Of a stretch of DNA of 64,000 nt, positions 19,616 through 63,344 are shown one piece after another (within the stretch, counting starts at the first letter, position 1; each line of letters begins with the position of its first letter). The notes below the pieces were generated by a model. The model ran no database searches. It was not told the DNA's origin and worked only from the letters and a program-made list of their open reading frames with translations. The stretch is from a virus (lineage: Duplodnaviria; Caudoviricetes): positions 161-64,160 of the IMG/VR virus record IMGVR_UViG_3300045747_000276, one strand, 5' to 3'. The translations under genes and the position numbers were made by a program.

Positions 19616-20004
19616 ATATGGATTATCTGATTGGTGCTATTTGTATGTGGGTGGTTTTTATACTCATTTTATGGTTGAAAAAGTCTGATTGTAATCATAA
19701 TTGTAATCAGGGTCGAACTTGTAATTGCAAAAAAGAGAGTAATAATGTTTAATTCTATCAATTTAGTCGAACTCAATAAACTAGTGACTGGCACACATGT
19801 GCACTATGGGAATTATGGCAGGACATTTCAGGTAGATGAAGACGGTAATGAAATAGATGATAAAGTTACAAAAGAAAAACGCGGTCGTGGTCGACCCAAA
19901 AGTTACATTAATGCATGTGAAATGGTTTGGTCACCTATTATCAATAAGGTGACGAATTCGTGGGGAAAAATGAGCATGCGTGGGAAATAGTTGAGGGATA
20001 TAAT

Positions 20005-21054
20005 ATGAGAAAATTGGCATCTATTAGAAAAATTGCAGACATTCGCCCTATAGAAGGGGCAGATGCAATTGAGTGTGTGGTTATAGACGGCTGGACAGTC
20101 GTATCTAAAAAGGGCGAGTTTCAGGTTGGTGAACTGTGTGTTTATTTTGAAATAGATTCTGTTCTACCTATTCAACCTGCATTTGAATTCCTTAGAAAAT
20201 CTTGCTATGTTAATAAGGATTGGTTACCTAATGGTGAGGGGTTTAGGTTGAAAACTATTCGTCTTAGGGGACAATTATCTCAAGGCCTTGTAGTTCCATT
20301 GGAGCCAGCTTGCGCTAACATTGAATCACAGCTGTTTGATGGGTTAGATGTGACATACCCATTGGGTGTTATTAAATGGGACCCTCCATTGCCAGCTTGC
20401 CTACAGGGTCAAGCCGAGGGGCTGTTTCCGTCATTCATTGCAAAGTCTGATCAAGAAAGAGCGCAGAATTTGACATTGGAAATTGCAGAAGCGTTTGCAA
20501 ACAAGGAACAATTTGAGGTCACAATAAAGTTAGATGGGTCATCTTGCACCGTGTTTCATCGTGATGGTGATACCGGGGTATGTTCTAGGAATTTGCATCT
20601 TAAGGACAATGATGAAAATAAAGACAACTCGTTTGTTCGCATTGCACATGACACTGGTCTTATCGCTGCATTGAAACAATATGGTAAAAATATTGCTGTT
20701 CAGGGTGAGCTAATGGGTCCTGGTATTCAAGGCAATAGAGAATGCCTGCCAAAAACCCAATTGTTTGTATTTGATATATTTGATATTGATGCACGCAAAT
20801 TCCTTATGCATAGGGATAGGATGAATGTGTTTGTAGATTTGCAAGAGTTGGGGTTCAACGGTATGCACACTCCTATATGCACAGATTTAGGGGTGACAAA
20901 ATTACCGTCCGGTGATGTGAATGATTTGCTAAAATTAGCTGACGGTAAGTCTCTAATCAACCCAGTCAGGGAAGGCATGGTGTGGAAATCAACATCAAGG
21001 AACTTCTCGTTCAAAACGATTTCTAACAAGTTTTTGTTGGGTGGTGGTGAGTAG
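20005..21054 (+). CDS. ATP-dependent RNA ligase (DRB0094/Rnl5-like, N-terminal OB domain)
   Basis: 'MRKLASIRKI..I.PIEGADAIE', 'KLDGSS', 'GELMG', 'REGMVWK', 'FKTISNKFLL'. Confidence 0.9.
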   Translation: MRKLASIRKIADIRPIEGADAIECVVIDGWTVVSKKGEFQVGELCVYFEIDSVLPIQPAFEFLRKSCYVNKDWLPNGEGFRLKTIRLRGQLSQGLVVPLEPACANIESQLFDGLDVTYPLGVIKWDPPLPACLQGQAEGLFPSFIAKSDQERAQNLTLEIAEAFANKEQFEVTIKLDGSSCTVFHRDGDTGVCSRNLHLKDNDENKDNSFVRIAHDTGLIAALKQYGKNIAVQGELMGPGIQGNRECLPKTQLFVFDIFDIDARKFLMHRDRMNVFVDLQELGFNGMHTPICTDLGVTKLPSGDVNDLLKLADGKSLINPVREGMVWKSTSRNFSFKTISNKFLLGGGE

Positions 21055-28834: not shown

Positions 28835-29374
28835 ATGGCTTTAAGTAAACATGCCCACATTATGATAGACACTGAGACACTGAGCCAGCATAAAAATGCT
28901 GTTATTGTGTCAATAGGTGCATGTAAGTTCTCCTTTGAAAAGGGGATCTTCGATGAATTTTATATCAACATTGATGCCAAAGATTCAAAGAAACACGGAC
29001 TCCACATTGATCAGAGCACAATTGATTGGTGGATGAAGCAGGATAAGGCAGCTCGCAATGCGTGGATGGTTGATCCTCAACCATTGAAATTTGCAATGGG
29101 AGAATTGACAAATTGGATTGGTGACGCGAATCATAACTTTTGGGCACACGGTGCATCATTCGACTATCCTATCCTAGAGAGTTCATGGGAAGCGGTCGGA
29201 ATGAAACCTCAGTGGAAATATTGGAATCTAAATGATTCTAGAACCATTATGAACATTGCTGGTATAAACAATAAGACTCTTAGGAGTAATGATGATACTG
29301 TTTACCACAATGCATTGGAAGATTCCAAAGCACAAACAAAGGTTTTGATTGAGTTATTGAAGGATATAATGTAA
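28835..29374 (+). CDS. DEDD 3'-5' exonuclease (DexA-like)
   Basis: 'IDTETL', 'GASFD', 'DSRT', 'HNALED'. Confidence 0.88.
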   Translation: MALSKHAHIMIDTETLSQHKNAVIVSIGACKFSFEKGIFDEFYINIDAKDSKKHGLHIDQSTIDWWMKQDKAARNAWMVDPQPLKFAMGELTNWIGDANHNFWAHGASFDYPILESSWEAVGMKPQWKYWNLNDSRTIMNIAGINNKTLRSNDDTVYHNALEDSKAQTKVLIELLKDIM

Positions 29375-30585
29375 TGAGTGAACATATTAAAACGCGCTTT
29401 CTATTGGCGCTTAGTGGTGGAAGTTTGACGGCAATTAAGAAGTATGTTTCTGGTAATTGGGAACAGCGCAATCTATCAAAGTCGTTTAAGTTTTATAACA
29501 AAGACGCAGATTCTTATTTCTATCACCCAGATTTGCTGTTCAGTGCATTCCATATGAAACCTATTCTTAAGGGTCGTACAATCTGGGATGTGTTAGAAAT
29601 CAACAGGAATGAAAAACGAATGATTTTCATCGACTCTGGTGGTTACTCTATTGCTACAGGTGCAGTGTCTCGAGACAAGTGGACAGACCAGATGGCATTT
29701 GACTTATCTGTCGCCAATGGTAATTTGTTCCCCATTCTAGATATTCCTGTTACACCCAATGCAGACTTTGATGAGCACCTAAAGATCAGCAAAAACAGTG
29801 CACAATTTTACAAGGCAAACAAACCAGGCAACGGTGAGATGATTTTGAATGTTGCACACGGTAGACACATTGAAGAAGTTAAGAGGTGGGTTGATTCTAT
29901 CAGTGAAGTAGAGTTGGATGGTTGGGCTCTAGGTTCAAGTCACAGAGGAAATCCAAAGGAAATCTTGAAGGGCATGTTCTACATGCTAACATCAGGTGTT
30001 CTTGACAAAGCAAAAGCATTCCACGTCTTCGGTGTATCGTCAGCATCAATGATCATTTATTTTGCAGCAGTTAAGCATGCTATTCGCCGAAACAAGTTGA
30101 AGTATAATTTTGATCTTACATTTGATAGTTCATATCCAATGAGGACATTCGCATTTGGTCACTTCTTTGCATTCCGCAAGTTTGATGGGTTTGTGAATGT
30201 GACCATGACTAACACTGTTGATTGGTCACAATTAAAGGATGATGATTTTGCAGATGGGTTCTTTTGTAATTGCCCAGTTTGTTCAAACATCAAGTCTTTC
30301 CCATCATTGATGAAGGATGAGAAGTCAGATGAGCGAGGTATGTGGGGTTCGTTGCATAATTTGCATGAAATGCTAATGTATAAACGGCAGATTGAGGCTC
30401 TGGTAGAAATGTGTATGGATGTAGATGGTCTTGTTGGGAACATTTTCCCTGCAACGATTGCTAGGAACATACTGGTTATCCAAGAGGCATTCAACGACAT
30501 TCCTAATGGTGAGGCAATCATCAATCGTAAATTTGAATACAAAGACATTGATGCAGGCAACTCATTGGAAGGATTCTTCGGATGA
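29374..30585 (+). CDS. TGT-family guanine transglycosylase (tRNA TGT or DpdA-like)
   Basis: 'DSGGY', 'LDIP', 'HG', 'GWALG', 'HVFG', 'FDSS', Zn site 'CNCPVC...HN'. Confidence 0.85.
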   Translation: MSEHIKTRFLLALSGGSLTAIKKYVSGNWEQRNLSKSFKFYNKDADSYFYHPDLLFSAFHMKPILKGRTIWDVLEINRNEKRMIFIDSGGYSIATGAVSRDKWTDQMAFDLSVANGNLFPILDIPVTPNADFDEHLKISKNSAQFYKANKPGNGEMILNVAHGRHIEEVKRWVDSISEVELDGWALGSSHRGNPKEILKGMFYMLTSGVLDKAKAFHVFGVSSASMIIYFAAVKHAIRRNKLKYNFDLTFDSSYPMRTFAFGHFFAFRKFDGFVNVTMTNTVDWSQLKDDDFADGFFCNCPVCSNIKSFPSLMKDEKSDERGMWGSLHNLHEMLMYKRQIEALVEMCMDVDGLVGNIFPATIARNILVIQEAFNDIPNGEAIINRKFEYKDIDAGNSLEGFFG

Positions 30586-31836: not shown

Positions 31837-33282
31837 GTGTGTGGAATAGGTGGTGTATTAAATTTTGGGTCAAATACGTTTGAGGATTATAATGGTTTTC
31901 TCAATCAGTTGACACAACGCGGTAGGGACTCTTTAGGTATTATGGTATATGACGACCAGGGTCGGGTGTCTACTACTAAGTACCTAGATCAAAAGAGCAT
32001 AGGAAGTTACTTCCCATTGAACGACATCGTTAAGTTGATGATGGTTAATGTTAGAGCGGTGCCCACATCATTCTCAGAGGGTAATGTTAAGATGGAAGAT
32101 GGTTACCTTCAACCTTATGTTATTCGTGGTGAAGCGTCACCCAAGCAACATCGTGCCATAATTCACAATGGCACAATAGCTAATGATGACACTCTAAACA
32201 AGACATTCGATTACCTAATCAATGACGACAATGGTGCAGTGTATTTTGATAGACGGCAAGTTCCTATTGATTCAACTGTATTTTTGAATTATTCCTCTAA
32301 GACCCTATGTGATGCTATTCGTGATCAAGAGATAGTCGGTTCATTTAGTGGGGCTCTGTGGGATGAACCTGAAGCCACAGTAGTGTTGTTTAAAAATTAT
32401 ATGCCATTACATATTATGATTGACTACACTGCCCGGCGTGTGTGGTGGTCTAATGTAAAAGAAGCACTATATGAGGTGGGTGGGAACGAAGTTGCATATT
32501 TTGATGTCCCTGCATATACATCTATTTTTATCCCGTATCACCGGACTTTTGATGAAGTTGTGCATATCATCAAACAAGGTATGCGAAAGGGTGGTAACCT
32601 CTATGGGAAACAAAAAGCGGAAAAGGCATTAGTTGTTTGCTCTTCCGGATTGGATTCAACTACAGTTGCAGCTCTCGCTGTAAAGAAATACGGCAAAGAC
32701 AATGTGACATTGTTGCATTATAACTATGGATGTAAGGCAGAATCACGGGAACAATTCCGAATTGTTCAAATTGCAGAACGATTAGGTTGTTCCTATAAGA
32801 TAGTTGACATTAGCACAGTTTTTGCAGGAATGAAGTCCCCTATTCTAGGTACAAATGGCGACATTAGCAAAGGTGATGCAGGGGTAGAATATGCAAAGGA
32901 ATGGGTACCAGCACGTAATTTGATTATGATGTCTGTAGCGTTGGGTGTTGCAGAAGATGGTGGGTTCTCTACAATCCAATTGGGTGCCAACTTGACAGAA
33001 CAAGCATCATTCCCAGACAACTCATTGGATTTCACAGAGAAGTTGAATGTATTGAGCGCGTATGCCGTGCAGAATAATGTACGAATCCGGGTTGAAGCAC
33101 CTCTTGTGAATCTGATGAAACAAGAGATCGTGAAGATTGGTATTGAAGTGAACACACCTTACGAGTTAACATGGTCTTGCTATCACAATGGAGAAACCCA
33201 CTGTGGTGAGTGTGCTCCATGCCAGATGAGGAAGCAAGCATTTGAAATGAACGGGTTAGTTGACCCGGTGATGAAAGGTTAA
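31837..33282 (+). CDS. queC: Gat-QueC fusion (Ntn glutamine amidotransferase plus preQ0 synthase)
   Basis: 'MCGIGG', 'RGRDS', 'HNGTI'; QueC 'SSGLDS', 'VPARN', 'TWSCY...HCGECAPC..R'. Confidence 0.9.
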   Translation: MCGIGGVLNFGSNTFEDYNGFLNQLTQRGRDSLGIMVYDDQGRVSTTKYLDQKSIGSYFPLNDIVKLMMVNVRAVPTSFSEGNVKMEDGYLQPYVIRGEASPKQHRAIIHNGTIANDDTLNKTFDYLINDDNGAVYFDRRQVPIDSTVFLNYSSKTLCDAIRDQEIVGSFSGALWDEPEATVVLFKNYMPLHIMIDYTARRVWWSNVKEALYEVGGNEVAYFDVPAYTSIFIPYHRTFDEVVHIIKQGMRKGGNLYGKQKAEKALVVCSSGLDSTTVAALAVKKYGKDNVTLLHYNYGCKAESREQFRIVQIAERLGCSYKIVDISTVFAGMKSPILGTNGDISKGDAGVEYAKEWVPARNLIMMSVALGVAEDGGFSTIQLGANLTEQASFPDNSLDFTEKLNVLSAYAVQNNVRIRVEAPLVNLMKQEIVKIGIEVNTPYELTWSCYHNGETHCGECAPCQMRKQAFEMNGLVDPVMKG

Positions 33283-40435: not shown

Positions 40436-40476
40436 AATTGTGGCATCCATCGCGGTGCCATTCTTAGTTCATTATT

Positions 40477-40664
40477 AGGAAAAGTTCAGCAAACATACAC
40501 TTTACGTAAATACTAATACTAATGTATGGAGATTCTCGAAGGAGATGACAGATCGGAAAGACGGTATGCCGATAGGAAAGACTATTGCTAATTGATAAAA
40601 GTAGTCAATGACTCTGTGACAAAGACACAGTAATAGTGGTAATCCACAATACTTTTCCTGTTAA
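40477..40664 (+). ncRNA. TCAGCAA-box structured RNA, copy 1
   Basis: aggaaaagt-TCAGCAA...acttttcct-GTTAA; several internal hairpins. Confidence 0.7.
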
Positions 40665-40669
40665 AATTT

Positions 40670-40906
40670 TGGATAATTTCAGCAATTATTAAACGACAAA
40701 TGCTGTTGACGGTGCCTTGTTTGGGGTGATGTGTAGTTATGTTAGAAATAACACACCAATGGAACAGATATGCGATGTAACAGAAAACACATCGGGTGAA
40801 GAGACCTTACATCTTATAGCTCATAAGCGAAAGTTATGATATTGCGTGGAGGGTTTCAGGTAACACGCGTGAATAAATTGAAACAAGACCTCAGATATCC
40901 AGTTAA
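40670..40906 (+). ncRNA. TCAGCAA-box structured RNA, copy 2
   Basis: tggata..TCAGCAA...tatcca-GTTAA; multi-stem interior. Confidence 0.65.
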
Positions 40907-40915
40907 TCGAATAGT

Positions 40916-41045
40916 AGGATAGATTCAGCAACTAATTAAAAGTACTAAGACGGCATATCGAAGCGGACTGATAATCTCCGTGGATATATGCCAAACAAGT
41001 TTTTGACAGTCACTTGTAAAATAAACTACCAAAGCTATCCTGATA
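40916..41045 (+). ncRNA. TCAGCAA-box structured RNA, copy 3
   Basis: aggatag.t-TCAGCAA...ctatcct-GATA. Confidence 0.65.
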
Positions 41046-41111
41046 CTATTTAAATACAACAGACTTTAATTTACGCTCTTAGTCTGTGAGCGGTAATAAG
41101 TAGGAGACGAC

Positions 41112-42085: not shown

Positions 42086-42152
42086 AGGTGTAAAAAGAAG
42101 AAGAAAGAACAAGACCCAACAAGTAGCAATATTTGTTGGGTTTTGTCATTTT
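42073..42152 (+). terminator. Attenuator-like terminator/antiterminator
   Basis: 42073-42083 tgggtcttgtt pairs with 42108-42118 aacaagaccca, which alternatively pairs in the 15-bp stem 42109-42123/42132-42146. Confidence 0.65.
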
Positions 42153-42251: not shown

Positions 42252-42280
42252 TTGACATTAAAGATTTTGTATTATACAAT
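42252..42280 (+). promoter_or_regulatory. Sigma70-type promoter ahead of the RNA cluster
   Basis: TTGACA-17-TACAAT. Confidence 0.7.
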
Positions 42281-42889: not shown

Positions 42890-42958
42890 GGGCTTACCGA
42901 ATGGGTCGGGAAAGACACTTGCAATGTCATGCTTGCGGATCGTTACCGCATAGGTCCA
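42890..42958 (+). tRNA. tRNA-Ala(TGC)
   Basis: gaca-CTTGCAA-tgtc; G3.U70 pair; no encoded CCA. Confidence 0.7.
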
Positions 42959-42999
42959 CACAGAGTGAATTTTGCATAAATACATGTAAGGAGGACAAG

Positions 43000-43582
43000 A
43001 TGTTCTATTATTTGTATGAGATAACCAATAAGGTTAATGACAAAATTTACGTAGGGGTGCATAAGACATCAGATTTGAATGATGGTTTATATGGGCTCTG
43101 GAAAGATAATTCAGCATGCAATTGCAAAGCATGGTGTACTGAATTTTTCTAAAGTCATACTAGAGCATTTTGATACATCAGATGCTATGTATGCAAGAGA
43201 AGCAGAATTGGTGAATGCCGAATTCTTAGAAAGAGATGACGTGTATAACCTCCGTAGAGGAGGACATGGCGGGTTTGATTACATTAACAAATATTGTGGT
43301 AATCAGGGTATCCGGATGAATTCACACATGTCTAATGAGACCAGACGCAAGGGTGCATTTAAAATGATTGAAATATGTAAACGTGACGGATTGGGTGTTT
43401 ACTCAGATTCCAGAATAAACATATTTAAAGATAAATCATTCCAAGATGAAATGACAAATAGGGCCAGAATTCATAATATGGGTTCTAAATGGGTCACTAA
43501 TGGTATAGAGAATAGAAAAATAAAGAAAGATGTTTTGATACCTGATGGGTGGAAATTAGGTAGAGTCATTAAGCCGCTGTAG
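43000..43582 (+). pseudogene. Frameshifted GIY-YIG homing endonuclease
   Basis: MFYYLYEITN..YVGVH..DG then YMGSG in another frame (one extra T near 43087); CATAAATA at 42975. Confidence 0.8.
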
Positions 43583-43647
43583 TCCTCGGGGAGGGCAGTT
43601 GATTGTCTATCAATATCAGGTGGGTTCGAGTCCCATCAGCGGCGCCA
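43573..43647 (+). tRNA. tRNA-Asp(GTC)
   Basis: gttga-TTGTCTA-tcaat; GCCA. Confidence 0.85.
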
Positions 43648-43652
43648 ATATT

Positions 43653-43735
43653 AGGATGAATTCAGCAACCAATTAAAATCTGTCTGTGGTTTTCGATTTT
43701 CCACTTAAATAAAAAGTAGGTATTCATCCTGTTAA
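43653..43735 (+). ncRNA. TCAGCAA-box structured RNA, copy 4
   Basis: aggatgaat-TCAGCAA...attcatcct-GTTAA (perfect 9-bp stem). Confidence 0.7.
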
Positions 43736-43860
43736 AATCAATCGGAGTAATTGACCGAAAAGTAAATGTTGATCATCTTGGCTATTTGGGTGATCCATGC
43801 AGTGTTACACAGCTATGAAAAGACGGGGTAAGAATCCTCACGTAAAGTATGCAGAAATAT

Positions 43861-43939
43861 TGACCGTAAGTCGACAAGGTGTTAGGCGCCTCGCTGTTAA
43901 CGAGGAATAAGTTAGGTTCGATTCCTAAACGGTCAGCCA
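43861..43939 (+). tRNA. tRNA-Asn(GTT)
   Basis: cctcg-CTGTTAA-cgagg; GCCA. Confidence 0.88.
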
Positions 43940-43944
43940 ATTAT

Positions 43945-44038
43945 TTCCCAGTTTACCTCACATCGCGCGAGAGGCAATGGAGTCACATATTTTATATGTG
44001 TGCGGACAACATGAGTTCAATTCTCATCTGGGAAGCCA
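43945..44038 (+). ncRNA. Atypical tRNA-like RNA (TTT at anticodon position)
   Basis: Acceptor ttcccag/ctgggaa-GCCA; T-arm atgag-TTCAATT-ctcat; enlarged D region. Confidence 0.65.
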
Positions 44039-44133
44039 ATTTTGTAGTTACAAGGTTATCTGCACCACAATGTTAAGCAGATCTACAAATTATAGTGTAT
44101 TATAGTCAATTATAGTATATTTTAATTTGTATT

Positions 44134-44207
44134 GCCCGGTTAATTAAAAAGTATAATATTCGCCTGATAAGCGAAATTCAGAGGAGCGTTACCTCTACTG
44201 GGTACCA
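44134..44207 (+). tRNA. tRNA-Ile(GAT)
   Basis: ttcgc-CTGATAA-gcgaa; T-loop AGCGTTA; ACCA. Confidence 0.82.
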
Positions 44208-44215
44208 ACGATAAT

Positions 44216-44290
44216 ATCCCCATAGTTCAATGTATAGAATAGAAGTTTCCTAAACTTTAGGTCAGGGTTAGATTCCCTGTGGGGGTTCCA
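44216..44290 (+). tRNA. tRNA-Arg(CCT)
   Basis: gaagt-TTCCTAA-acttt; TCCA. Confidence 0.82.
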
Positions 44291-44295
44291 AATAA

Positions 44296-44355
44296 AGAAT
44301 GCGTTCAGCAAACAAAAAAATTCAACTTTTAATTGAAAAATAAGCATTCTGTTAA
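44296..44355 (+). ncRNA. TCAGCAA-box structured RNA, copy 5 (carries a Lys-UUU anticodon stem-loop mimic)
   Basis: agaatgc.t-TCAGCAA...ttcaa-CTTTTAA-ttgaa...gcattct-GTTAA. Confidence 0.72.
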
Positions 44356-44359
44356 TTTT

Positions 44360-44433
44360 CTCGGTGTGGTGAAATGGTATCACTCTTGGTTTGGGACCAA
44401 GGAGCGAAGGTTCGATTCCTTCTACCGAGACCA
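44360..44433 (+). tRNA. tRNA-Pro(TGG)
   Basis: cttgg-TTTGGGA-ccaag; ACCA. Confidence 0.9.
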
Positions 44434-44560
44434 GTTATGGACGAAAGACGCGAAAGCGGTTTAGTATGTCCACCAAGTTTTGTAGTTTGATCGGTCAGAT
44501 CATGTTAAAGGCGATGCGCATCTTAATGATAATATGTGCAGCCTACTACAGGTTGATTAT

Positions 44561-44631
44561 TGCGGGGATTCAGGGTATCGGCAAGTCTCATAAGCTCGGC
44601 CTAGGTGTTTCGAGTACACCCTCCGCTTCCA
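44561..44631 (+). tRNA. Degenerate initiator-like tRNA-Met(CAT)
   Basis: 1:72 mismatch; CTCATAA loop; weak anticodon stem; TCCA. Confidence 0.6.
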
Positions 44632-44636
44632 ATAAT

Positions 44637-44710
44637 AGTGCATTAGGCTAAAAGAAAACCATGTGTCTCATAAGCACAATTCGATGGAGCGTTACCATCA
44701 TGCACTACCA
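44637..44710 (+). tRNA. tRNA with CAT anticodon (Met or Ile2)
   Basis: tgtgt-CTCATAA-gcaca; ACCA. Confidence 0.82.
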
Positions 44711-44716
44711 AACAAT

Positions 44717-44803
44717 GCGAGTTGTGGTGGAACGGTATACACTCCAGACTTAAAATCTGGCGCCCGTAAGGGATTGAGGGTTCAAGTCCCTCCACTCGTA
44801 CCA
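44717..44803 (+). tRNA. tRNA-Leu(TAA)
   Basis: ccaga-CTTAAAA-tctgg; long variable arm; ACCA. Confidence 0.88.
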
Positions 44804-44809
44804 AATTGT

Positions 44810-44886
44810 GCACCGTTCGTATAACGGCTTATTATACATGGCTCTTAACCATGGAGATCTGGGTTCAAATCCCAGGCGGTGCACCA
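44810..44886 (+). tRNA. tRNA-Lys(CTT)
   Basis: catgg-CTCTTAA-ccatg; ACCA. Confidence 0.9.
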
Positions 44887-44892
44887 AACAAT

Positions 44893-44967
44893 GGCTCGAT
44901 CATATAATGGTCATTATCGCGGATTGTCTATCCGTAGATCGCAGTTCGATTCTGCGTCGGGTCGCCA
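44893..44967 (+). tRNA. tRNA-Asp(GTC)
   Basis: gcgga-TTGTCTA-tccgt; GCCA. Confidence 0.88.
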
Positions 44968-44974
44968 ATATTAT

Positions 44975-45050
44975 TCTTCGATAGCTCAGTTGGTAGAGCC
45001 TTTGACTGTTAATCAAAATGTCCGTGGTTCGAGCCCACGTCGAGGAGCCA
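44975..45050 (+). tRNA. tRNA-Asn(GTT)
   Basis: tttga-CTGTTAA-tcaaa; GCCA. Confidence 0.92.
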
Positions 45051-45076
45051 GAATAACAATAAAAGCAAGAAATTAT

Positions 45077-45150
45077 GCGGGTATGGTATATGGTTTGTGC
45101 CCTAGCCTTCCAAGCTATAGAATCCGGTTAGAGTCCGGATACCCGCTCCA
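45077..45150 (+). tRNA. tRNA-Gly(TCC)
   Basis: tagc-CTTCCAA-gcta; TCCA. Confidence 0.85.
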
Positions 45151-45156
45151 AACAAT

Positions 45157-45231
45157 GCATCCAGAGCCAGTCAGCACAGGCACTCGTCTGCAAAACGAGG
45201 TAATAGAGGGCAGCACTCTATGGGTGTTCCA
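45157..45231 (+). tRNA. tRNA-Cys(GCA)
   Basis: ctcgt-CTGCAAA-acgag; T-loop GGCAGCA; TCCA. Confidence 0.8.
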
Positions 45232-45245
45232 GATAGGTAAATGAT

Positions 45246-45509
45246 ATGACAAAGGATGAACATCTGGGTATCATAAATTCATCGTATCCCAGAATTTACA
45301 AAGCATTGGCGCTTTTCTGGGGTGAACGAGAGTTTATCCCTTATGTTGAAAAGTTACTATCAGATACAAGAGACGGTGATAGGGCAGGGTTCCCATCAAA
45401 TATCGCTGACTCTTTTGTAGAATTGCAGAATATGCACAATAAAGAATTCCCACAATTTGAAACCCAGTGGGGCAATGTGTGGTTAAAAACACATTTTGGA
45501 AAAGTATAA
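45246..45509 (+). CDS. Hypothetical protein within the tRNA cluster
   Basis: 'YPRI...L..FWG...F..Y...LL.DTR.G.R.GFP'. Confidence 0.7.
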   Translation: MTKDEHLGIINSSYPRIYKALALFWGEREFIPYVEKLLSDTRDGDRAGFPSNIADSFVELQNMHNKEFPQFETQWGNVWLKTHFGKV

Positions 45510-45908: not shown

Positions 45909-46577
45909 ATGTTATATTACTTATATGAAATTAGGAATAATATCAATGGCAAAATTTACATTGGTGTTCATAAGTCTAATGATATAGATGATGGTTATAT
46001 GGGATCGGGTGCTCTCATCCAATTAGCTATAAAGAAGTATGGGATTGAAAATTTTACCAAGACTATATTAGAATATTTTGATGATTCCAAATCAATGTTC
46101 TTAAAGGAATATGAGATTGTCGATATTGAGTTTGTATCTCGCAGAGATACATATAATTTGGCGATTGGAGGATGTGGTGGATCTATGTTACAAAACAGAA
46201 GATCATTTTCAGGAAAGCATTCTGATCAATCGAGGAAAAAAATTTCAGATAGCAGTAAAGGAAGAATAGTTGCAGATGCAGCAAAAATAAATATGTCTAG
46301 GCATCATTGGGTAAAGTTGGACCCAGTTGCTCAGAAGGAACACTCCATATATGCTGCCAGAAAATCTGTTGAATCTAGGAAGATGAATAACAATATCTCA
46401 TACAACAAGGTTTCGTGTTCATTGTTGGAACGAAATAAAGAAAATAGAGATTGTGGTATTCCTCATCACAATAGTGGGATTCCAAAGAAAAAGATTGAAT
46501 GTCCCATATGTAATAAGATGGTGGCTATTAACACTGCCAACAGATGGCACTTTGATAACTGTAAAATGAGAACTTAG
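45909..46577 (+). mobile_element. GIY-YIG (SegB-like) homing endonuclease with NUMOD3
   Basis: 'YLYEIRN...YIGVH...DGYMGSG', 'GKHSDQSRKKIS'; CATAAATA at 45884. Confidence 0.88.
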
Positions 46578-47160: not shown

Positions 47161-47225
47161 GGGAAAGTTCCGAAAGGACGCAGCCTGATAGGTTGATGAC
47201 AGCAAACAAAAATTCTTTCCCGCCA
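47161..47225 (+). ncRNA. T-armless tRNA-like RNA carrying the CAGCAAAC box
   Basis: gggaaag/ctttccc-GCCA; tcc-GAAA-gga; cagc-CTGATAG-gttg; CAGCAAACAAAAA. Confidence 0.6.
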
Positions 47226-47272
47226 ATTACATCCTCTCCCATCCTGATTTTTTGTAAGCAGGAAATTGATTG

Positions 47273-49302: not shown

Positions 49303-49378
49303 GGAATCGTAGTGAAACGGTTATCACAGCAGACTTTTAATCTGCCAGTTCTGGGTTCGAATCCCAGCGGTTCCACCA
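49303..49378 (+). tRNA. tRNA-Lys(TTT)
   Basis: gcaga-CTTTTAA-tctgc; ACCA. Confidence 0.92.
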
Positions 49379-49929: not shown

Positions 49930-50270
49930 TGGTAGTAAACTGATCGTAAGAAACGATTGCAACACGGGAGTGCAACTCTCCTCACCTCCACCATAAGAAC
50001 TCTGAATCTTGCAGCAATGCATGATCAGGTTTGGTACTCCAGATCCCTCTTGCACGGTAACACCGATAACAAAGACAGATGCACCGAGAGTTCTTTTGAT
50101 GGGGGTGCCTTAGGATCGACTGCGAAAGAAGTACAATGCATTGGCTACTCGTCACAGATAGACGTAAAAAGTAAAACGCAATTAAATGCAAACGACGAAA
50201 GATTCGCTTTAGCCGCATAGGCCTAGCGTAAGGAGTTCGATGGGTTGTCCTTATAACAGACTCAACCCAT
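49930..50270 (+). ncRNA. ssrA: Circularly permuted (two-piece) tmRNA
   Basis: Acceptor piece ends cacctcc-ACCA at 49993; coding piece begins GGGGGTG at 50101 (G3.U70); tag ANDERFALAA* at 50188-50220. Confidence 0.92.
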
Positions 50271-60121: not shown

Positions 60122-60177
60122 AGTTTGGGTTCAGCAACCTATATCAATCATACTGAAACCAAAGTCCAAACTGTTAA
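60122..60177 (+). promoter_or_regulatory. TCAGCAA-box element, copy 6, in the 5' UTR next to the RBS
   Basis: agtttgg-gt-TCAGCAA...ccaaact-GTTAA-aaggaatttaaATG. Confidence 0.72.
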
Positions 60178-60188
60178 AAGGAATTTAA

Positions 60189-61592
60189 ATGAACGCATTT
60201 GTTAACGCTATCGGTACTCCAAATAAGACTGTAACTACCAATGGAATGGTAGCATTCGATAAGACAGGCTCCAAGTTGGTAGATATGTTCTTCAACATTG
60301 GTGCAGCTCGCAACAACCCAAATATTGTTCCTCAATTCATGCAAGCATTTGCAGAGGACAAACTGTTGGCCACAAAGATGTTATTCTGGGCCCGTGATGT
60401 TCGAGGTGGAGCAGGTGAACGTAAGGTTTTCCGTGATATTTTGTCAAAGCTGGCAGTAACTAACCCAGATTTAGTGAAGAAGAATTTGCCGCTTGTGGCA
60501 AAGTATGGTCGTTGGGATGACCTCCTTATCCTTAAGGGTGATGTATTGCAATCTGCATATCGCCTAATTGGTACTGCCATTAAATCAGGCAATGGTCTGT
60601 GCGGTAAGTGGATGCCCCGCAAGGGCCCAGAGGCTGCAGCACTTCGGTCAGCACTTGGGATGTCACCAAAACAATACAGAAAGACCCTTGTCGGTTTAAC
60701 GTCGGTTGTTGAGACCCAAATGTGTGCTAAGACATGGGATAACATTGAGTTCGGTCATGTGCCTTCAATTGCAGCAGCACGGTATCAAAAAGCATTCGCA
60801 AAGAACGCTGAGGTGAAGTATAAAGAATATCGAGACGCTCTAGTTACTGGTGAAGCAAAGATCAACGCATCTAGCATTTTCCCTCACGATGTTATCAAGA
60901 GCCTGCAGTCGGGTCTGGTAGATGTTGCAACAGCACAATGGAATGCATTACCTAATTATCTAGGTGACCAAAAGGTGTTGGCACTGGTTGACGTGTCAGG
61001 TTCTATGTCCTGCCCAGCAGGAAAGAATAGTAACACAACATGTCTAGATGTGTCATTGTCCCTTGGTTTGTATGTGTCGGACAAATTGACTGGTGCTTTC
61101 AAGGATACATTCTTGACATTTAGTGCATCACCACAATTGTTGACCCTTAAAGGTTCTATTGCAGAAAAGTTAGGACAATTGGAGTCATCTGATGATTGGG
61201 AAATGAATACTAATATTGAATTGGCGTTTGATGCAATTCTTAAGACGGCAGTAAAGGCAAATGCTCCCCAAGAGGATATGCCAGATGTTCTGTTGATTAT
61301 GTCAGATATGCAATTTGATCAATGTGCAGATTGGGGCGACACCATGCAAACTATGATGCAACGCAAGTATGAAAATGCGGGGTATAAGGTGCCTACAATT
61401 GTGTTCTGGAATCTCAATGGTTCACACGGAAATGTGCCTGGCACATCCGTTGATAAGGGAGTTATGATGGTTTCTGGGTTCTCCCCAGCAATCCTTAAGG
61501 CAGTTCTTGCCTGTGATCTGACCAATGTCACACCATACAGTATGATGTTGGAGGTCCTAAACGGTGATCGTTACGCAAACGTAACCGTATAA
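60189..61592 (+). CDS. DUF2828-family helical plus vWA protein (putative Ro60/TROVE-like RNA-binding protein)
   Basis: 'RDVRGGAGER', 'YGRWDDL', 'KWMPR', MIDAS 'DVSGSM', 'SDMQFD', 'FWNL', 'SGFS'. Confidence 0.82.
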   Translation: MNAFVNAIGTPNKTVTTNGMVAFDKTGSKLVDMFFNIGAARNNPNIVPQFMQAFAEDKLLATKMLFWARDVRGGAGERKVFRDILSKLAVTNPDLVKKNLPLVAKYGRWDDLLILKGDVLQSAYRLIGTAIKSGNGLCGKWMPRKGPEAAALRSALGMSPKQYRKTLVGLTSVVETQMCAKTWDNIEFGHVPSIAAARYQKAFAKNAEVKYKEYRDALVTGEAKINASSIFPHDVIKSLQSGLVDVATAQWNALPNYLGDQKVLALVDVSGSMSCPAGKNSNTTCLDVSLSLGLYVSDKLTGAFKDTFLTFSASPQLLTLKGSIAEKLGQLESSDDWEMNTNIELAFDAILKTAVKANAPQEDMPDVLLIMSDMQFDQCADWGDTMQTMMQRKYENAGYKVPTIVFWNLNGSHGNVPGTSVDKGVMMVSGFSPAILKAVLACDLTNVTPYSMMLEVLNGDRYANVTV

Positions 61593-62729: not shown

Positions 62730-63344
62730 ATGACTGGGTTTGAATTTTTTAAGATTTACACCCCATTAAAATTACATTTTACGCAAGAGTCGTATGATGG
62801 ATTCAAATATAAATGGCAAACTAGGGCTATATCTAATGATGGGTTTTGTGCTAGGAAAGATCGGTTTCTATTTGAAAAATGGGGAAAACAACATAAAAAT
62901 AGCATATCCGCTGGGCAATTGGTTATTAGCAATTTCATATATAACAGTGCGAATTGGTTATATGATGATATGCAAGACGCGCAAGATGTTTATACCAAAT
63001 GGAAGTCCGTAAGAGAGTCTATAACAAAAACATTCGAAGATGATTTAAATGAACTCAATGCACACAAACTACTATGGGATCAATGCATTTCCAGAACCCC
63101 AAAGGGAAATGCTGCTCCACTTCTCCAATTATATTTGGCTAAACGGATACACCCAGAGTCAGTGGTTATATCCGATAACATCAATTCTTTTATTGATAGG
63201 TGGGCAAATGAATACAACCTAGATCCACTTATAAAAGACGAGATGGTCAAATTAAAAAAGTATGTCCCTTTTGTCAAGTTCGATAGGGATAAAGTGCAAG
63301 AAAAATTTACTAGTTTATTTAGAGAAGAAAATGAAAAAAATTGA
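62730..63344 (+). CDS. gp59: Helicase loader gp59
   Basis: 'Y..LKLHFT..SYD.FKY...F..RKDR..FEK'. Confidence 0.88.
   Translation: MTGFEFFKIYTPLKLHFTQESYDGFKYKWQTRAISNDGFCARKDRFLFEKWGKQHKNSISAGQLVISNFIYNSANWLYDDMQDAQDVYTKWKSVRESITKTFEDDLNELNAHKLLWDQCISRTPKGNAAPLLQLYLAKRIHPESVVISDNINSFIDRWANEYNLDPLIKDEMVKLKKYVPFVKFDRDKVQEKFTSLFREENEKN

What the first reader, a model, noticed from the sequence alone, without database searches (positions are those of the whole stretch)
44296..44355. Minimal box RNA displaying a perfect tRNA-Lys(UUU) anticodon stem-loop
The only cargo of the 60-nt copy 5 is ttcaa-CTTTTAA-ttgaa on A-rich linkers. This is a 5-bp stem with a 7-nt loop identical to that of the real tRNA-Lys(TTT) at 49303. 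tRNA-Lys(UUU) is the known target of PrrC and PARIS AriB. Copy 6 similarly holds tca-ATCATAC-tga (CAT centred, weaker). Inference: a protein-scaffolded anticodon decoy or a sensor of anticodon nuclease activity.
Basis: partly seen in the sequence, partly recalled or inferred. Interest (0 to 1): 0.85.

Follow-up and report, generated by a model that had tools for sequence, protein, structure and literature searches.

The report
Phage Ro-partner RNA displaying anticodon hairpin
A 59-base RNA gene wedged between two phage tRNA genes belongs to a widespread small-RNA family, found in no paper or RNA library searched, that sits beside a Ro60-like phage protein; its only variable part is a conserved copy of a lysine-tRNA anticodon hairpin, which may bait host enzymes that cut tRNAs.

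Summary
Window 44297-44355 (+) is a 6-bp terminal stem, a UUCAGCAA box, a 32-nt A-rich cargo holding UUCAA-CUUUUAA-UUGAA, and a UGUUAA tail. The loop equals that of the phage's own tRNA-Lys(UUU).

It is not chance. An IMG/VR contig whose DUF2828 protein is about 53% identical carries the same hairpin and 3' flank letter for letter. Relatives keep the hairpin with compensatory stem changes and vary only the middle loop base.

The scaffold defines a family. A covariance model finds 143 copies, all on the gene's strand, in 89 sources, and 132 of 133 copies in IMG/VR loci lie upstream of a DUF2828/DUF7788 gene. It also lies next to that gene in FelixO1, P100, CP8, MiniLon and others.

The protein model folds like Ro60.

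Cargoes range from YrlA-like permuted tRNA domains and acceptor-less tRNA bodies to bare anticodon-type hairpins. Of 106 unique elements, 30 have such a hairpin, against 2.6 in shuffles.

These are therefore Y-RNA-like partners of a Ro-like protein, and copy 5 is a minimal member. A decoy role against anticodon nucleases is plausible but untested. Copy 6's "CAT" hairpin is not supported.

The scaffold signature also matches Dictyostelium Class I RNAs (Rfam RF01414, 35.4 bits, below its threshold).

The parts
44297..44355 (+). Copy 5: minimal box RNA (terminal stem, box, cargo, tail)
   Evidence: Sequence read. Covariance model R1 scores it 60.2 bits, E 5e-13. Rfam RF01414 scores it 35.4 bits, against a gathering score of 41.5.
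44297..44302 (+). Outer stem, 5' strand GAAUGC. Pairs with 44344-44349.
   Evidence: Across the family the 6 pairs are formed in 101-106 of 106 unique elements with several Watson-Crick types; a seventh pair forms in only 38 of 106.
44304..44311 (+). 5' box UUCAGCAA
   Evidence: C13, G15 and C16 are invariant (106/106); A17 and A18 are present in 105/106.
44321..44337 (+). Inner hairpin UUCAA-CUUUUAA-UUGAA (loop 44326-44332), an anticodon-stem-loop mimic of Lys-UUU type
   Evidence: Identical in L003:1339-1400. Covariation shown. The loop equals that of tRNA-Lys(UUU).
44344..44349 (+). Outer stem, 3' strand GCAUUC
44350..44355 (+). 3' tail UGUUAA
   Evidence: In the family the stem-closing C is followed by U (97/106) and G (104/106), then mostly U, U.
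40478..40664 (+). Copy 1 (long cargo of about 160 nt)
40671..40906 (+). Copy 2 (long cargo; tail AGUUAA)
40917..41046 (+). Copy 3 (cargo of about 100 nt; tail UGAUAC)
43654..43735 (+). Copy 4 (cargo with a T-arm-like hairpin and an AAAAAGUAG motif shared with relatives)
   Evidence: (41.1 bits).
60123..60177 (+). Copy 6, directly upstream of the Ro-like gene. Its tail runs into the ribosome-binding site.
   Evidence: 47.3 bits.
47188..47250 (+). Weak seventh candidate between tRNA-Val and tRNA-Ile
   Evidence: 22.3 bits, E 0.0034. By my reading of the sequence, only 4 of 6 stem pairs form.
60189..61592 (+). DUF2828 + DUF7788 protein (467 aa), with a Ro60-like ring and a vWA-like domain. Presumed protein partner.
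   Evidence: Pfam: 98.7 and 153.5 bits. PHROG 850 'RNA-binding protein'. AF2 model pLDDT 77. The 13 Foldseek PDB hits with E <= 0.001 are all Ro60/TROVE.
49303..49378 (+). The phage's own tRNA-Lys(UUU), with the same anticodon loop
44216..44290 (+). Flanking tRNA-Arg(CCU)
44360..44433 (+). Flanking tRNA-Pro(UGG)

Best explanation
Copy 5 is a gene for a small non-coding RNA of about 55-60 nt. It is most likely cut out of the tRNA-array transcript when the flanking tRNAs are processed (inferred).

It is the minimal member of a phage RNA family built like a Y RNA.
- The two ends form a 6-bp stem that starts with G.
- One unpaired base and the box UUCAGCAA (in relatives UUACAGCAA, UAACAGCAA or UUCCGCAA) follow the 5' strand.
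- UGUU follows the 3' strand.
- Everything between is a swappable effector module.

The constant module is most likely the binding site for the phage's Ro60-like DUF2828/DUF7788 protein. Co-location and fold are shown here; binding is inferred.

The effector module of copy 5 is a selected mimic of the tRNA-Lys(UUU) anticodon stem-loop. Sister RNAs display Thr-UGU, Arg-UCU, Ser-NGA and Phe-GAA type loops, acceptor-less tRNA bodies, or YrlA-like permuted tRNA domains.

Most likely function (inferred, roughly 1 in 3): the Ro-like particle presents tRNA parts as bait to host tRNA-directed enzymes, above all anticodon nucleases of the PrrC, RloC or PARIS-AriB kind. This would soak them up or block them while the phage's own tRNAs and RNA ligase keep translation going.

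I hold the structural and family part of this statement at about 0.85, and the decoy part at about 0.35.
For: Scaffold family:
- Model R1 finds 143 hits at E <= 0.05 in 658,609 bases of 89 sources, all 143 on the + strand, which is the strand of the DUF2828 gene. They reduce to 107 unique sequences.
- 66 of 80 IMG/VR loci have at least one hit. Of the 75 loci with at least 300 nt upstream, 60 have a hit ending within 300 nt of the gene start. 132 of 133 hits lie upstream.
- In five complete phage genomes (FelixO1, P100, CP8, S-CoN_Ph12, MiniLon), 9 of 10 hits at E <= 0.1 lie within about 1.1 kb of the gene.
- The stem covaries.

Protein: all 13 Foldseek PDB hits with E <= 0.001 are Ro60/TROVE, with TM 0.39-0.62 normalised by query length.

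Cargo is tRNA-derived:
- L052:1459-1517 matches the tRNA model over positions 7-64 at 55.5 bits, inside a box element.
- L068:2802-2867 matches the tRNA model at 41.3 bits.
- Sub-threshold YrlA (RF02553) matches fall inside box elements of L052 (40.9 bits), EFDG1 (44.9, 34.2) and MiniLon (37.7).

Anticodon-type hairpins:
- 30 of 106 unique elements have one, against 2.6 +/- 1.6 in shuffles (maximum 8 in 300).
- 20 of 106 have CUNNNAA, against 0.17 +/- 0.40.
- Copy 5's hairpin is identical in L003, and the helix shows compensatory changes.

Decoy idea:
- UAAU at positions 36-39 is invariant in the copy-5 subclass.
- The Ro60-like gp130 of phage Bas63 was reported to counter a defence system (PMC11482910, passage).
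- The window also encodes an RNA ligase at 19960-21054.
Against: - No expression data. No RNA run holds the stretch.
- RNA-protein binding was not tested.
- The hairpin is thermodynamically marginal: dG 0 for the 17-mer, and the minimum-energy fold of copy 5 does not use it.
- 76 of 106 unique elements lack an anticodon-type hairpin at this stringency, and 59 have neither that nor a T-arm-like hairpin.
- The counts are of related sequences selected and aligned by the model, so they are not independent events. Sequence clustering could not separate lineages because the cargo is low-complexity.
- The U33/R37 criterion is nearly symmetric under reverse complement.
- AriB also needs D-loop contacts and cuts C40|A41, whereas copy 5 has U40-G41 and no D arm. 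A bare hairpin may not be recognised.
- The host, and whether it has such nucleases, is unknown. The window is a metagenomic contig estimated 36% complete.
Confidence: 0.55

Rival explanations
1. RNA-repair or quality-control platform rather than decoy. As proposed for Rsr-YrlA with RtcB in bacteria, the Ro-like particle would use its tRNA-like module to dock onto tRNA-handling enzymes (ligase, kinase, modification enzymes, exonucleases) or onto damaged tRNAs. The anticodon hairpin would be a docking handle, not a bait.
For: - Ro60 fold.
- YrlA-like cargo.
- A 'tRNA splicing ligase' gene lies 1.3 kb from the DUF2828 gene in P100.
- An RNA ligase is encoded in the window.
- The jumbo-phage review describes ROT/TROVE with a tRNA-like partner as a repair platform (PMC7824862, passage).
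- The Thermus phage Ro60 with its Y-like RNAs binds host PNPase (PMC12135203, passages).
Against: - No ligase lies next to the gene in the window or in most loci I looked at.
- A bare 17-nt hairpin offers little for enzymes that read the tRNA elbow.
- Nothing was tested.
Confidence: 0.25
2. Cis-acting elements rather than stable RNAs. They would act as punctuation or processing signals of the tRNA-array transcript. For the copy directly upstream of the gene, the role would be an autoregulatory leader whose tail overlaps the ribosome-binding site.
For: - Copies sit in tRNA spacers.
- Copy 6's tail runs into the AAAGGA before the start codon, and many relatives end in CUGAAAGG before the ATG.
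Against: - Cargo sequences are conserved and covary independently of the flanks.
- Cargoes are whole tRNA-like domains in many copies.
- The same signature marks abundant stable small RNAs in Dictyostelium (PMC7919456, passages).
- In FelixO1, S-CoN_Ph12 and MiniLon the copies lie downstream of the gene.
Confidence: 0.1
3. The anticodon likeness of copy 5 is a chance hairpin, or a decaying relic of a former tRNA-like cargo, in A/U-rich filler with no function of its own.
For: - The hairpin is weak (dG 0).
- The cargo is low-complexity.
- Most family members lack such a hairpin.
Against: - Letter-for-letter identity with L003, although the Ro-like proteins are only about 53% identical.
- Compensatory stem changes and an invariant CUU-N-UAA loop in 8 elements.
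- About 12-fold (U33+R37) and about 100-fold (CUNNNAA) excess over shuffles.
Confidence: 0.05
4. A DNA-level repeat: a miniature mobile element, a recombination site or a homing-endonuclease site spread through the tRNA region.
For: - Several copies per genome.
- GIY-YIG and HNH endonuclease genes lie nearby.
Against: - Strict strand bias: 143 of 143 hits on one strand.
- Compensatory changes keep an RNA helix.
- Only the short constant module is shared between copies, while the cargo differs.
- I saw no terminal inverted repeats or target duplications when reading the copies, but I ran no dedicated repeat search.
Confidence: 0.03

Closest known systems
Bacterial and phage Y RNAs (YrlA/Yrn1, Rfam RF02553) with Ro60/Rsr
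   Same: - A small RNA gene sits next to, and on the strand of, a ring-shaped Ro60-fold protein gene.
- The ends pair into a terminal stem that carries the constant module.
- A variable effector module is often a tRNA mimic. Cargoes of several box RNAs give sub-threshold YrlA matches.
- Phage examples are known with Y-like RNAs upstream of the gene (PMC12135203; PMC4201824).
   Different: - The protein belongs to Pfam DUF2828/DUF7788. It gave no TROVE match at E <= 0.001, and a profile search against PDB sequences found no Ro60.
- The constant module is UUCAGCAA plus UGUU, not the GNCGAAN0-1G motif of YrlA.
- No box element reaches the YrlA gathering score.
- Minimal members carry only an anticodon-type hairpin, whereas in YrlA the anticodon arm is the part that is replaced.
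Dictyostelium Class I RNAs (Rfam RF01414)
   Same: - 5' G and a 6-bp terminal stem.
- A conserved motif next to the 5' strand. The Rfam consensus reads ...CCUUACAGCAA, and the phage variants include UUACAGCAA.
- The positions reported as nearly invariant in dictyostelids (C6, C9, A10, A11 of the motif) are the invariant ones here.
- A variable middle, a CUGU end, and a length of 42-65 nt.
- All three RF01414 hits at E <= 1 in the stretches searched fall on box elements: copy 5 at 35.4 bits, L048:694-750 at 34.2 and L016:2928-2980 at 29.6.
   Different: - All scores are below the gathering score of 41.5.
- The motif is 1-2 nt shorter.
- There is no DUSE promoter, and the context is a phage, not an amoeba.
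- The known direct binder in Dictyostelium is the RRM protein Rnp1A.
- The authors report the class as unique to Dictyostelia (PMC7919456, section 14).
Phage-encoded tRNAs that neutralise tRNA-cutting defences (T5 tRNA-Lys, Thr and Asn versus PARIS AriB)
   Same: A phage RNA with a Lys-UUU or Thr-UGU type anticodon loop, encoded in a tRNA array and proposed to blunt anticodon nucleases (PMC12409363, abstract).
   Different: Those are complete, functional replacement tRNAs that escape cleavage. Copy 5 is a 17-nt hairpin on a foreign scaffold, cannot be charged, and would act only as bait or inhibitor.

Membership tests
Y RNA (Ro60-associated ncRNA) | Encoded next to, and on the strand of, a Ro60-type protein gene | tested here: met
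   Copy 6 ends 11 nt before the gene. 132 of 133 hits in IMG/VR loci lie upstream, all on the same strand. 9 of 10 genome-wide hits lie within about 1.1 kb of the gene in 5 phages. The protein has a Ro60 fold. Copy 5 itself lies 16 kb from the gene, in the tRNA array.
Y RNA (Ro60-associated ncRNA) | 5' and 3' ends pair into a terminal stem that carries a conserved protein-binding module | tested here: met
   A 6-bp stem with covariation, plus invariant flanking bases.
Y RNA (Ro60-associated ncRNA) | The Ro-binding motif of known Y RNAs (bacterial GNCGAAN0-1G; a bulged helix in animals) | tested here: not met
   The constant module is UUCAGCAA ... UGUU. The YrlA motif is taken from PMC4201824.
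Y RNA (Ro60-associated ncRNA) | Physical binding to the Ro protein | not testable with these tools
   No tool here handles RNA-protein binding.
YrlA (Rfam RF02553) | Score at or above the gathering score (69 bits) | tested here: not met
   No hit on any window copy. The best hits in relatives' cargo are 44.9, 40.9 and 37.7 bits.
Dictyostelium Class I RNA (Rfam RF01414) | Score at or above the gathering score (41.5 bits) | tested here: not met
   Copy 5 scores 35.4 bits and copy 6 scores 12.6 bits.
Dictyostelium Class I RNA (Rfam RF01414) | 5' G, 6-bp terminal stem, conserved motif next to the 5' strand, CUGU end, 42-65 nt | tested here: met
   Features as described in PMC7919456. The motif matches over its last 8-9 of 11 positions.
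Dictyostelium Class I RNA (Rfam RF01414) | DUSE promoter about 60 nt upstream; dictyostelid genome | tested here: not met
   The element lies 7 nt after a phage tRNA gene. The contig is a T4-like phage (gp59 domain; virus record).
tRNA | Cloverleaf recognised by tRNA models | tested here: not met
   ARAGORN and the Rfam tRNA model give no hit on 44291-44359.
tRNA anticodon stem-loop (mimic) | 5-bp stem and 7-nt loop with pyrimidine 32, U33 and purine 37 | tested here: met
   UUCAA-CUUUUAA-UUGAA. The loop is identical to that of the phage's tRNA-Lys(UUU).
Ro60/TROVE protein (for the partner) | Pfam TROVE domain match | tested here: not met
   Only DUF7788 and DUF2828 pass at E <= 0.001. A profile search against PDB sequences finds no Ro60.
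Ro60/TROVE protein (for the partner) | HEAT-repeat ring plus vWA fold | tested here: met
   AF2 model pLDDT 77, pTM 0.69. Foldseek ranks 1-13 are all Ro60/TROVE. vWA domains follow from rank 14, interspersed with a few low-probability O-GlcNAc transferase rows.

The most novel reading that the evidence does not exclude
The phage box RNAs and the Class I RNAs of dictyostelid amoebae are one RNA class. Both would be the Y-RNA equivalents of a second, DUF2828-type lineage of Ro-like proteins that spans phages, giant viruses and eukaryotes.

If so:
- The long-unexplained Class I RNAs would be ligands of a DUF2828 homologue.
- The constant module (G-stem, ACAGCAA, CUGU) would be an ancient protein-recognition code.
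- The variable middle would be a programmable display site, which phages load with tRNA parts (anticodon loops of the tRNAs that defence nucleases cut).
Probability: 0.3. Interest if true: 0.9.

Novelty: new variant of a known kind. Interest (0 to 1): 0.8.

Why it matters
Homologues of the DUF2828 "RNA-binding / Ro-like" protein occur in 709 phage records of the collection searched. These include the well-known phages FelixO1, KVP40 and P100, as well as Campylobacter, Staphylococcus, Enterococcus and mycobacterial phages.

In the papers I could search, its RNA partner is only guessed at. One preprint speculates that "some tRNA genes are possibly Y RNAs" (PMC11482910). The family described here supplies concrete candidate partners, with a simple signature that can be searched for and mutated.

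It also shows a graded series from tRNA-like domains down to a bare anticodon hairpin. That makes the idea of tRNA-part decoys against tRNA-targeting immunity directly testable in laboratory phage-host pairs.

The match to Dictyostelium Class I RNAs, if real, would give a first mechanistic lead for an abundant eukaryotic RNA class of unknown function.

Tried and rejected
Searches and look-ups that gave nothing:
- Megablast of 43600-45300 against phage records: no match. A distant blastn of 44100-44500 found only tRNA pieces. There are no close named relatives.
- The original Class I RNA protein paper (Avesson 2011) is not held. I could not see which four proteins bound the Dictyostelium RNA.
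- A profile search against PDB sequences gave nothing meaningful.
- The protein atlas listed only viral DUF2828 clusters and said nothing about amoebae.
- Promoter and terminator scans are at chance level overall. They gave only a promoter-like site at 42252-42280 and hairpins at 40440-40461 and 42109-42146.

Methods that fell short:
- My first two pattern scanners were too noisy: many false positives, and forward 397 against reverse 121 hits. I replaced them with covariance model R1.
- R1 does not recover the long copies 1-3 whole.
- R1 gave no hit at E < 1 in S13 or KVP40. Their elements were found by eye.
- R1 missed the very short elements of L002 and L020, which are visible.
- Some R1 hits are closed too early and are truncated: L049, L051 and L058 at 2812-2861, L015:1832-1885 and L044:984-1049. 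One (L044:984-1049) was dropped by the 3'-end filter before the counts, leaving 106 of 107. The others stayed in.
- Clustering cargoes at 65% identity lumped 52 of 60 into one cluster, so lineage-independent counts could not be made.

Sequencing runs:
- No RNA holder is listed for the stretch.
- Laying contigs of three DNA runs showed copy 5 unchanged in contigs of two other studies and no informative variants.

Rejected readings:
- Copy 6's proposed CAT hairpin was considered and rejected. It has 3 bp only.
- Chance hairpin, DNA repeat and pure processing signal were considered and are listed as rivals.

Supplements are closed. Two may bear on novelty and I could not see them: Table S2 of PMC4201824 (22 phages with YrlA-like RNAs) and Table S4 of PMC7919456 (Class I candidates outside Dictyostelia).

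Searches behind the statement that I found no description of this family: (DUF2828), plus Rfam 15.

That PrrC and RloC target anticodon loops is recalled, not taken from a call.
Full report
WHAT IS THERE

The window is part of a T4-like phage contig. It is a virus record of 64,160 bases, estimated 36% complete, with a gp59 N-domain at 62730. It has a long same-strand array of 29 ARAGORN tRNAs, further Rfam-only tRNA hits and a permuted tmRNA.

The finding lies between tRNA-Arg(CCU) (ends 44290) and tRNA-Pro(UGG) (starts 44360). Read directly, the order is:
- G-A-A-U-G-C at 44297-44302
- G at 44303
- UUCAGCAA at 44304-44311
- a 32-nt A-rich stretch
- GCAUUC at 44344-44349
- UGUUAA at 44350-44355

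Inside the A-rich stretch lies UUCAA-CUUUUAA-UUGAA (44321-44337). The phage's tRNA-Lys(UUU) has the anticodon arm GCAGA-CUUUUAA-UCUGC. The loops are identical and the stems differ.

The same scaffold (stem, UUCAGCAA, cargo, stem, tail) occurs at 40478-40664, 40671-40906, 40917-41046, 43654-43735 and 60123-60177. The last copy ends 11 nt before a 467-aa ORF that matches Pfam DUF2828 and DUF7788.

THE SCAFFOLD IS A FAMILY TIED TO THE DUF2828 GENE

tblastn finds homologues of the ORF in 709 phage records, all below 60% identity. They are annotated "RNA-binding protein", "Ro-like RNA binding protein" or "DUF2828".

Printing the 260 nt upstream of the gene in 80 IMG/VR loci with homologues showed one to three tandem copies of the same scaffold in most of them.

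I built covariance model R1 from 24 short copies, giving it only the 6-bp outer stem as structure.
- It finds 143 matches at E <= 0.05 in 89 sources (658,609 bases), and all 143 are on the strand of the gene.
- 66 of 80 IMG/VR loci have a match. Of the 75 loci with at least 300 nt of upstream sequence, 60 have a match ending within 300 nt of the start codon. 132 of 133 matches are upstream.
- The 14 loci without a match break down as follows: five have almost no upstream sequence; two have very short copies visible by eye (L002, L020); seven, among them the most divergent proteins of the set, show none in the 260 nt printed.
- In named phages the model hits right beside the gene in FelixO1, P100, CP8, S-CoN_Ph12, MiniLon and EFDG1.
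- In whole-genome searches of five of these, 9 of 10 hits at E <= 0.1 lie within about 1.1 kb of the gene.
- S13 and KVP40 have copies the model missed.

Across 106 unique matches, the six stem pairs are formed in 101-106 cases with several Watson-Crick types. A seventh pair forms in only 38. G at the 5' end, C-A/C-G-C-A-A in the box, and C-U-G after the stem are invariant or nearly so. This alignment is fitted to the model, so it leans towards the structure.

THE PROTEIN IS RO60-LIKE

An AlphaFold2 model from a 24-sequence alignment (pLDDT 77, pTM 0.69) was searched against the PDB. All 13 matches with E <= 0.001 are Ro60/TROVE structures: Thermus phage phiLo Ro60, Deinococcus Rsr, and Xenopus and human Ro60. 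TM normalised by query length is 0.56-0.62, except two at 0.39. From rank 14 the hits are mostly vWA domains, with a few low-probability O-GlcNAc transferase rows among them. Sequence methods do not see this relationship.

Ro60 proteins work with Y RNAs. Their ends form the protein-binding stem, and their middle is an effector module. In bacteria that module mimics tRNA (PMC4201824, passages). A canonical phage Ro60 has two Y-like RNAs just upstream of its gene (PMC12135203, passages).

THE CARGO IS MADE OF tRNA PARTS

Rfam matches fall inside box elements of relatives:
- tRNA model positions 7-64 at 55.5 bits (L052:1459-1517). This is a D arm, an anticodon arm with loop CUUUUAA and a T arm, but no acceptor stem.
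- tRNA model at 41.3 bits (L068:2802-2867).
- Sub-threshold YrlA matches (gathering score 69) in L052 (40.9), EFDG1 (44.9, 34.2, 28.4), MiniLon (37.7), L011 and L047. By my reading these are circularly permuted tRNA domains: anticodon arm, T arm, capped acceptor, D arm.

Of 106 unique elements, 25 have a T-arm-like hairpin, 30 have an anticodon-type hairpin, 8 have both and 59 have neither.

A converse architecture also exists. Two "tRNAs" of 121 and 113 nt in Cronobacter phage S13, and one in L003, keep the acceptor, D and T arms but carry the box module, circularly permuted, in place of the anticodon arm.

IS COPY 5'S HAIRPIN MEANINGFUL?

Conservation:
- L003:1339-1400 has the hairpin and its 3' flank letter for letter. 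It sits in the same kind of tRNA array, on a contig whose Ro-like protein is about 53% identical. The outer stem carries a compensated A-U to G-C change.
- Six further elements keep the hairpin with stems UUCAA/UUGAA or UUUGA/UCAAA (UUGA/UCAA in L005) and loops CUUGUAA or CUUCUAA.
- On the 8-sequence alignment, the inner helix is 97.5% paired. Two of five pairs show changes on both sides, probably one event. The loop varies only at its middle base. Sliding the partner by one column drops pairing of the whole two-helix structure from 98.9% to 47-48%.

Statistics over the family:
- In 60 unique short-cargo elements, hairpins of at least 5 bp with 7-nt loops number 29, against 6.1 +/- 2.3 in 200 dinucleotide shuffles. 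Those with U33 and purine 37 number 21, against 1.0 +/- 0.9.
- Over all 106 elements, 30 have such a hairpin (T-loops excluded), against 2.6 +/- 1.6 in shuffles. 20 have the canonical CUNNNAA, against 0.17 +/- 0.40.
- At least nine different stems carry such loops, including one in a mycobacteriophage (UUUCA-CUGCUAA-UGAAA in MiniLon).

Against:
- The sequences are related and model-selected.
- The U33/R37 rule is nearly strand-symmetric.
- The isolated hairpin has dG 0, and copy 5's minimum-energy fold does not use it. It would need a protein, modification or stacking to form.
- Most members (76 of 106) have no such hairpin.
- Copy 6's proposed hairpin fails (3 bp).

HOW IT MOST LIKELY WORKS

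Shown here: the anatomy, conservation, covariation, co-location and the protein fold.

Inferred:
- The RNA is released from the tRNA-array transcript by processing of its neighbours.
- The constant module binds the Ro-like ring.
- The module in the middle is displayed.

For the displayed anticodon loops, the most specific lead concerns the copy-5 subclass. It keeps C32, U33, U34, U36, A37, A38 and U39 and varies only position 35, giving UUU, UGU and UCU. [quoted passage not shown] Phage T5 counters it with its own tRNA variants (PMC12409363, abstract and sections 22-23). Several box RNAs even read UAAUCA (L040, L047, L064, L005, L052, L068), though copy 5 reads UAAUUG.

A Ro60-like protein of the Felixounavirus Bas63 was reported to counter a defence system, with Y RNAs only guessed at (PMC11482910, passage).

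I therefore favour bait or inhibitor for tRNA-directed host enzymes, but only at about one in three. AriB also reads the D loop, and nothing here tests binding. A repair or quality-control platform, as for Rsr-YrlA-RtcB, is the main rival. The window encodes an RNA ligase, and P100 has a tRNA ligase gene 1.3 kb from the DUF2828 gene.

COMPARISON WITH KNOWN FAMILIES

The system works like a Ro60/Y-RNA particle with tRNA mimicry. It is not a member of YrlA or Y_RNA by Rfam score or by binding motif, and the protein is not a Pfam TROVE member.

Unexpectedly, copy 5 matches Rfam RF01414, the Class I RNAs of Dictyostelium. The match is end to end at 35.4 bits (gathering score 41.5; E 4e-4 in 4.3 kb; bias 0.0). 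Two other box elements score 34.2 and 29.6. No RF01414 hit at E <= 1 fell anywhere else in the 64.8 kb searched.

The published defining features are all present here (PMC7919456, passages and sections 14-15):
- a conserved 5' G
- a 6-bp stem
- a motif next to the 5' strand with invariant C, C, A, A
- a variable middle
- a CUGU end
- a length of 42-65 nt

The authors found the class nowhere outside Dictyostelia. DUF2828 is reported in plants and in mimivirus-like proteins (search listing; passage). Whether dictyostelids have it I could not test.

NOVELTY

I found no description of this RNA family. The text searches were made, and no family in Rfam 15 reaches its gathering score on these elements. 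A supplement I could not open (the phage table of PMC4201824) may list some of the tRNA-like members as YrlA-like. I rate it a new variant of a known kind.

Noticed in passing
L081:5896-6016 and 6026-6138 (Cronobacter phage S13); L003:1157-1275: These are annotated or detected as over-long tRNAs (121, 113 and 117 nt). They keep the acceptor, D and T arms, but in place of the anticodon arm they carry the box module circularly permuted: 3' stem strand, UGAYAA or UGUUAA as the loop, 5' stem strand, then UUCAGCA. This is a tRNA carrying the presumed Ro-like binding site.
   Followed up: partly
window 49931-50220: Permuted tmRNA inside the phage tRNA region (Rfam RF04321, 91.7 bits, gathering score 47).
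   Followed up: no
window 44134-44204, 44637-44707, 43861-43936: tRNA-model hits (47.8, 41.3 and 39 bits) that ARAGORN does not report. They may be odd or degenerate tRNAs within the array.
   Followed up: no
L009:876-1304; L084:2468-3019 (Listeria phage P100): A GOLLD RNA (196.6 bits, above its gathering score of 150) and a ROOL-like match (86 bits, below 99.1) lie in the same tRNA/DUF2828 neighbourhoods. Large ornate RNAs thus share the locus with the box RNAs.
   Followed up: no
window 40478-41046; L001, L002 and L017 upstream regions: The long copies 1-3 and long relatives share repeated small hairpins with GGAAAGAC-type loops. Their role is unknown.
   Followed up: no
window 42901-43582 and 45909-46577: Seg-like GIY-YIG homing-endonuclease ORFs sit among the tRNAs. 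The first is listed as two overlapping ORFs (42901-43152 and 43079-43582), so it may be frameshifted.
   Followed up: no
window 19960-21054, 29374-30585, 31837-33282: An RNA ligase (PF09414 with an OB domain), a TGT-like protein and a QueC-containing protein. These point to RNA repair and 7-deazaguanine pathway genes in the same contig.
   Followed up: no
L088:3393-3835 (Enterococcus phage EFDG1); L085:5446-5709 (Mycobacterium phage MiniLon): By my reading, each has three tandem box RNAs beside the gene. At least one in each has a YrlA-like permuted tRNA cargo. MiniLon's third is a bare anticodon-type hairpin with loop CUGCUAA.
   Followed up: partly
window 44038-44370: The copy-5 region occurs with 0-1 differences in contigs of two other metagenome studies (coded runs X2 and X3). 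The phage, or a near-identical strain, therefore occurs in more than one sample.
   Followed up: partly
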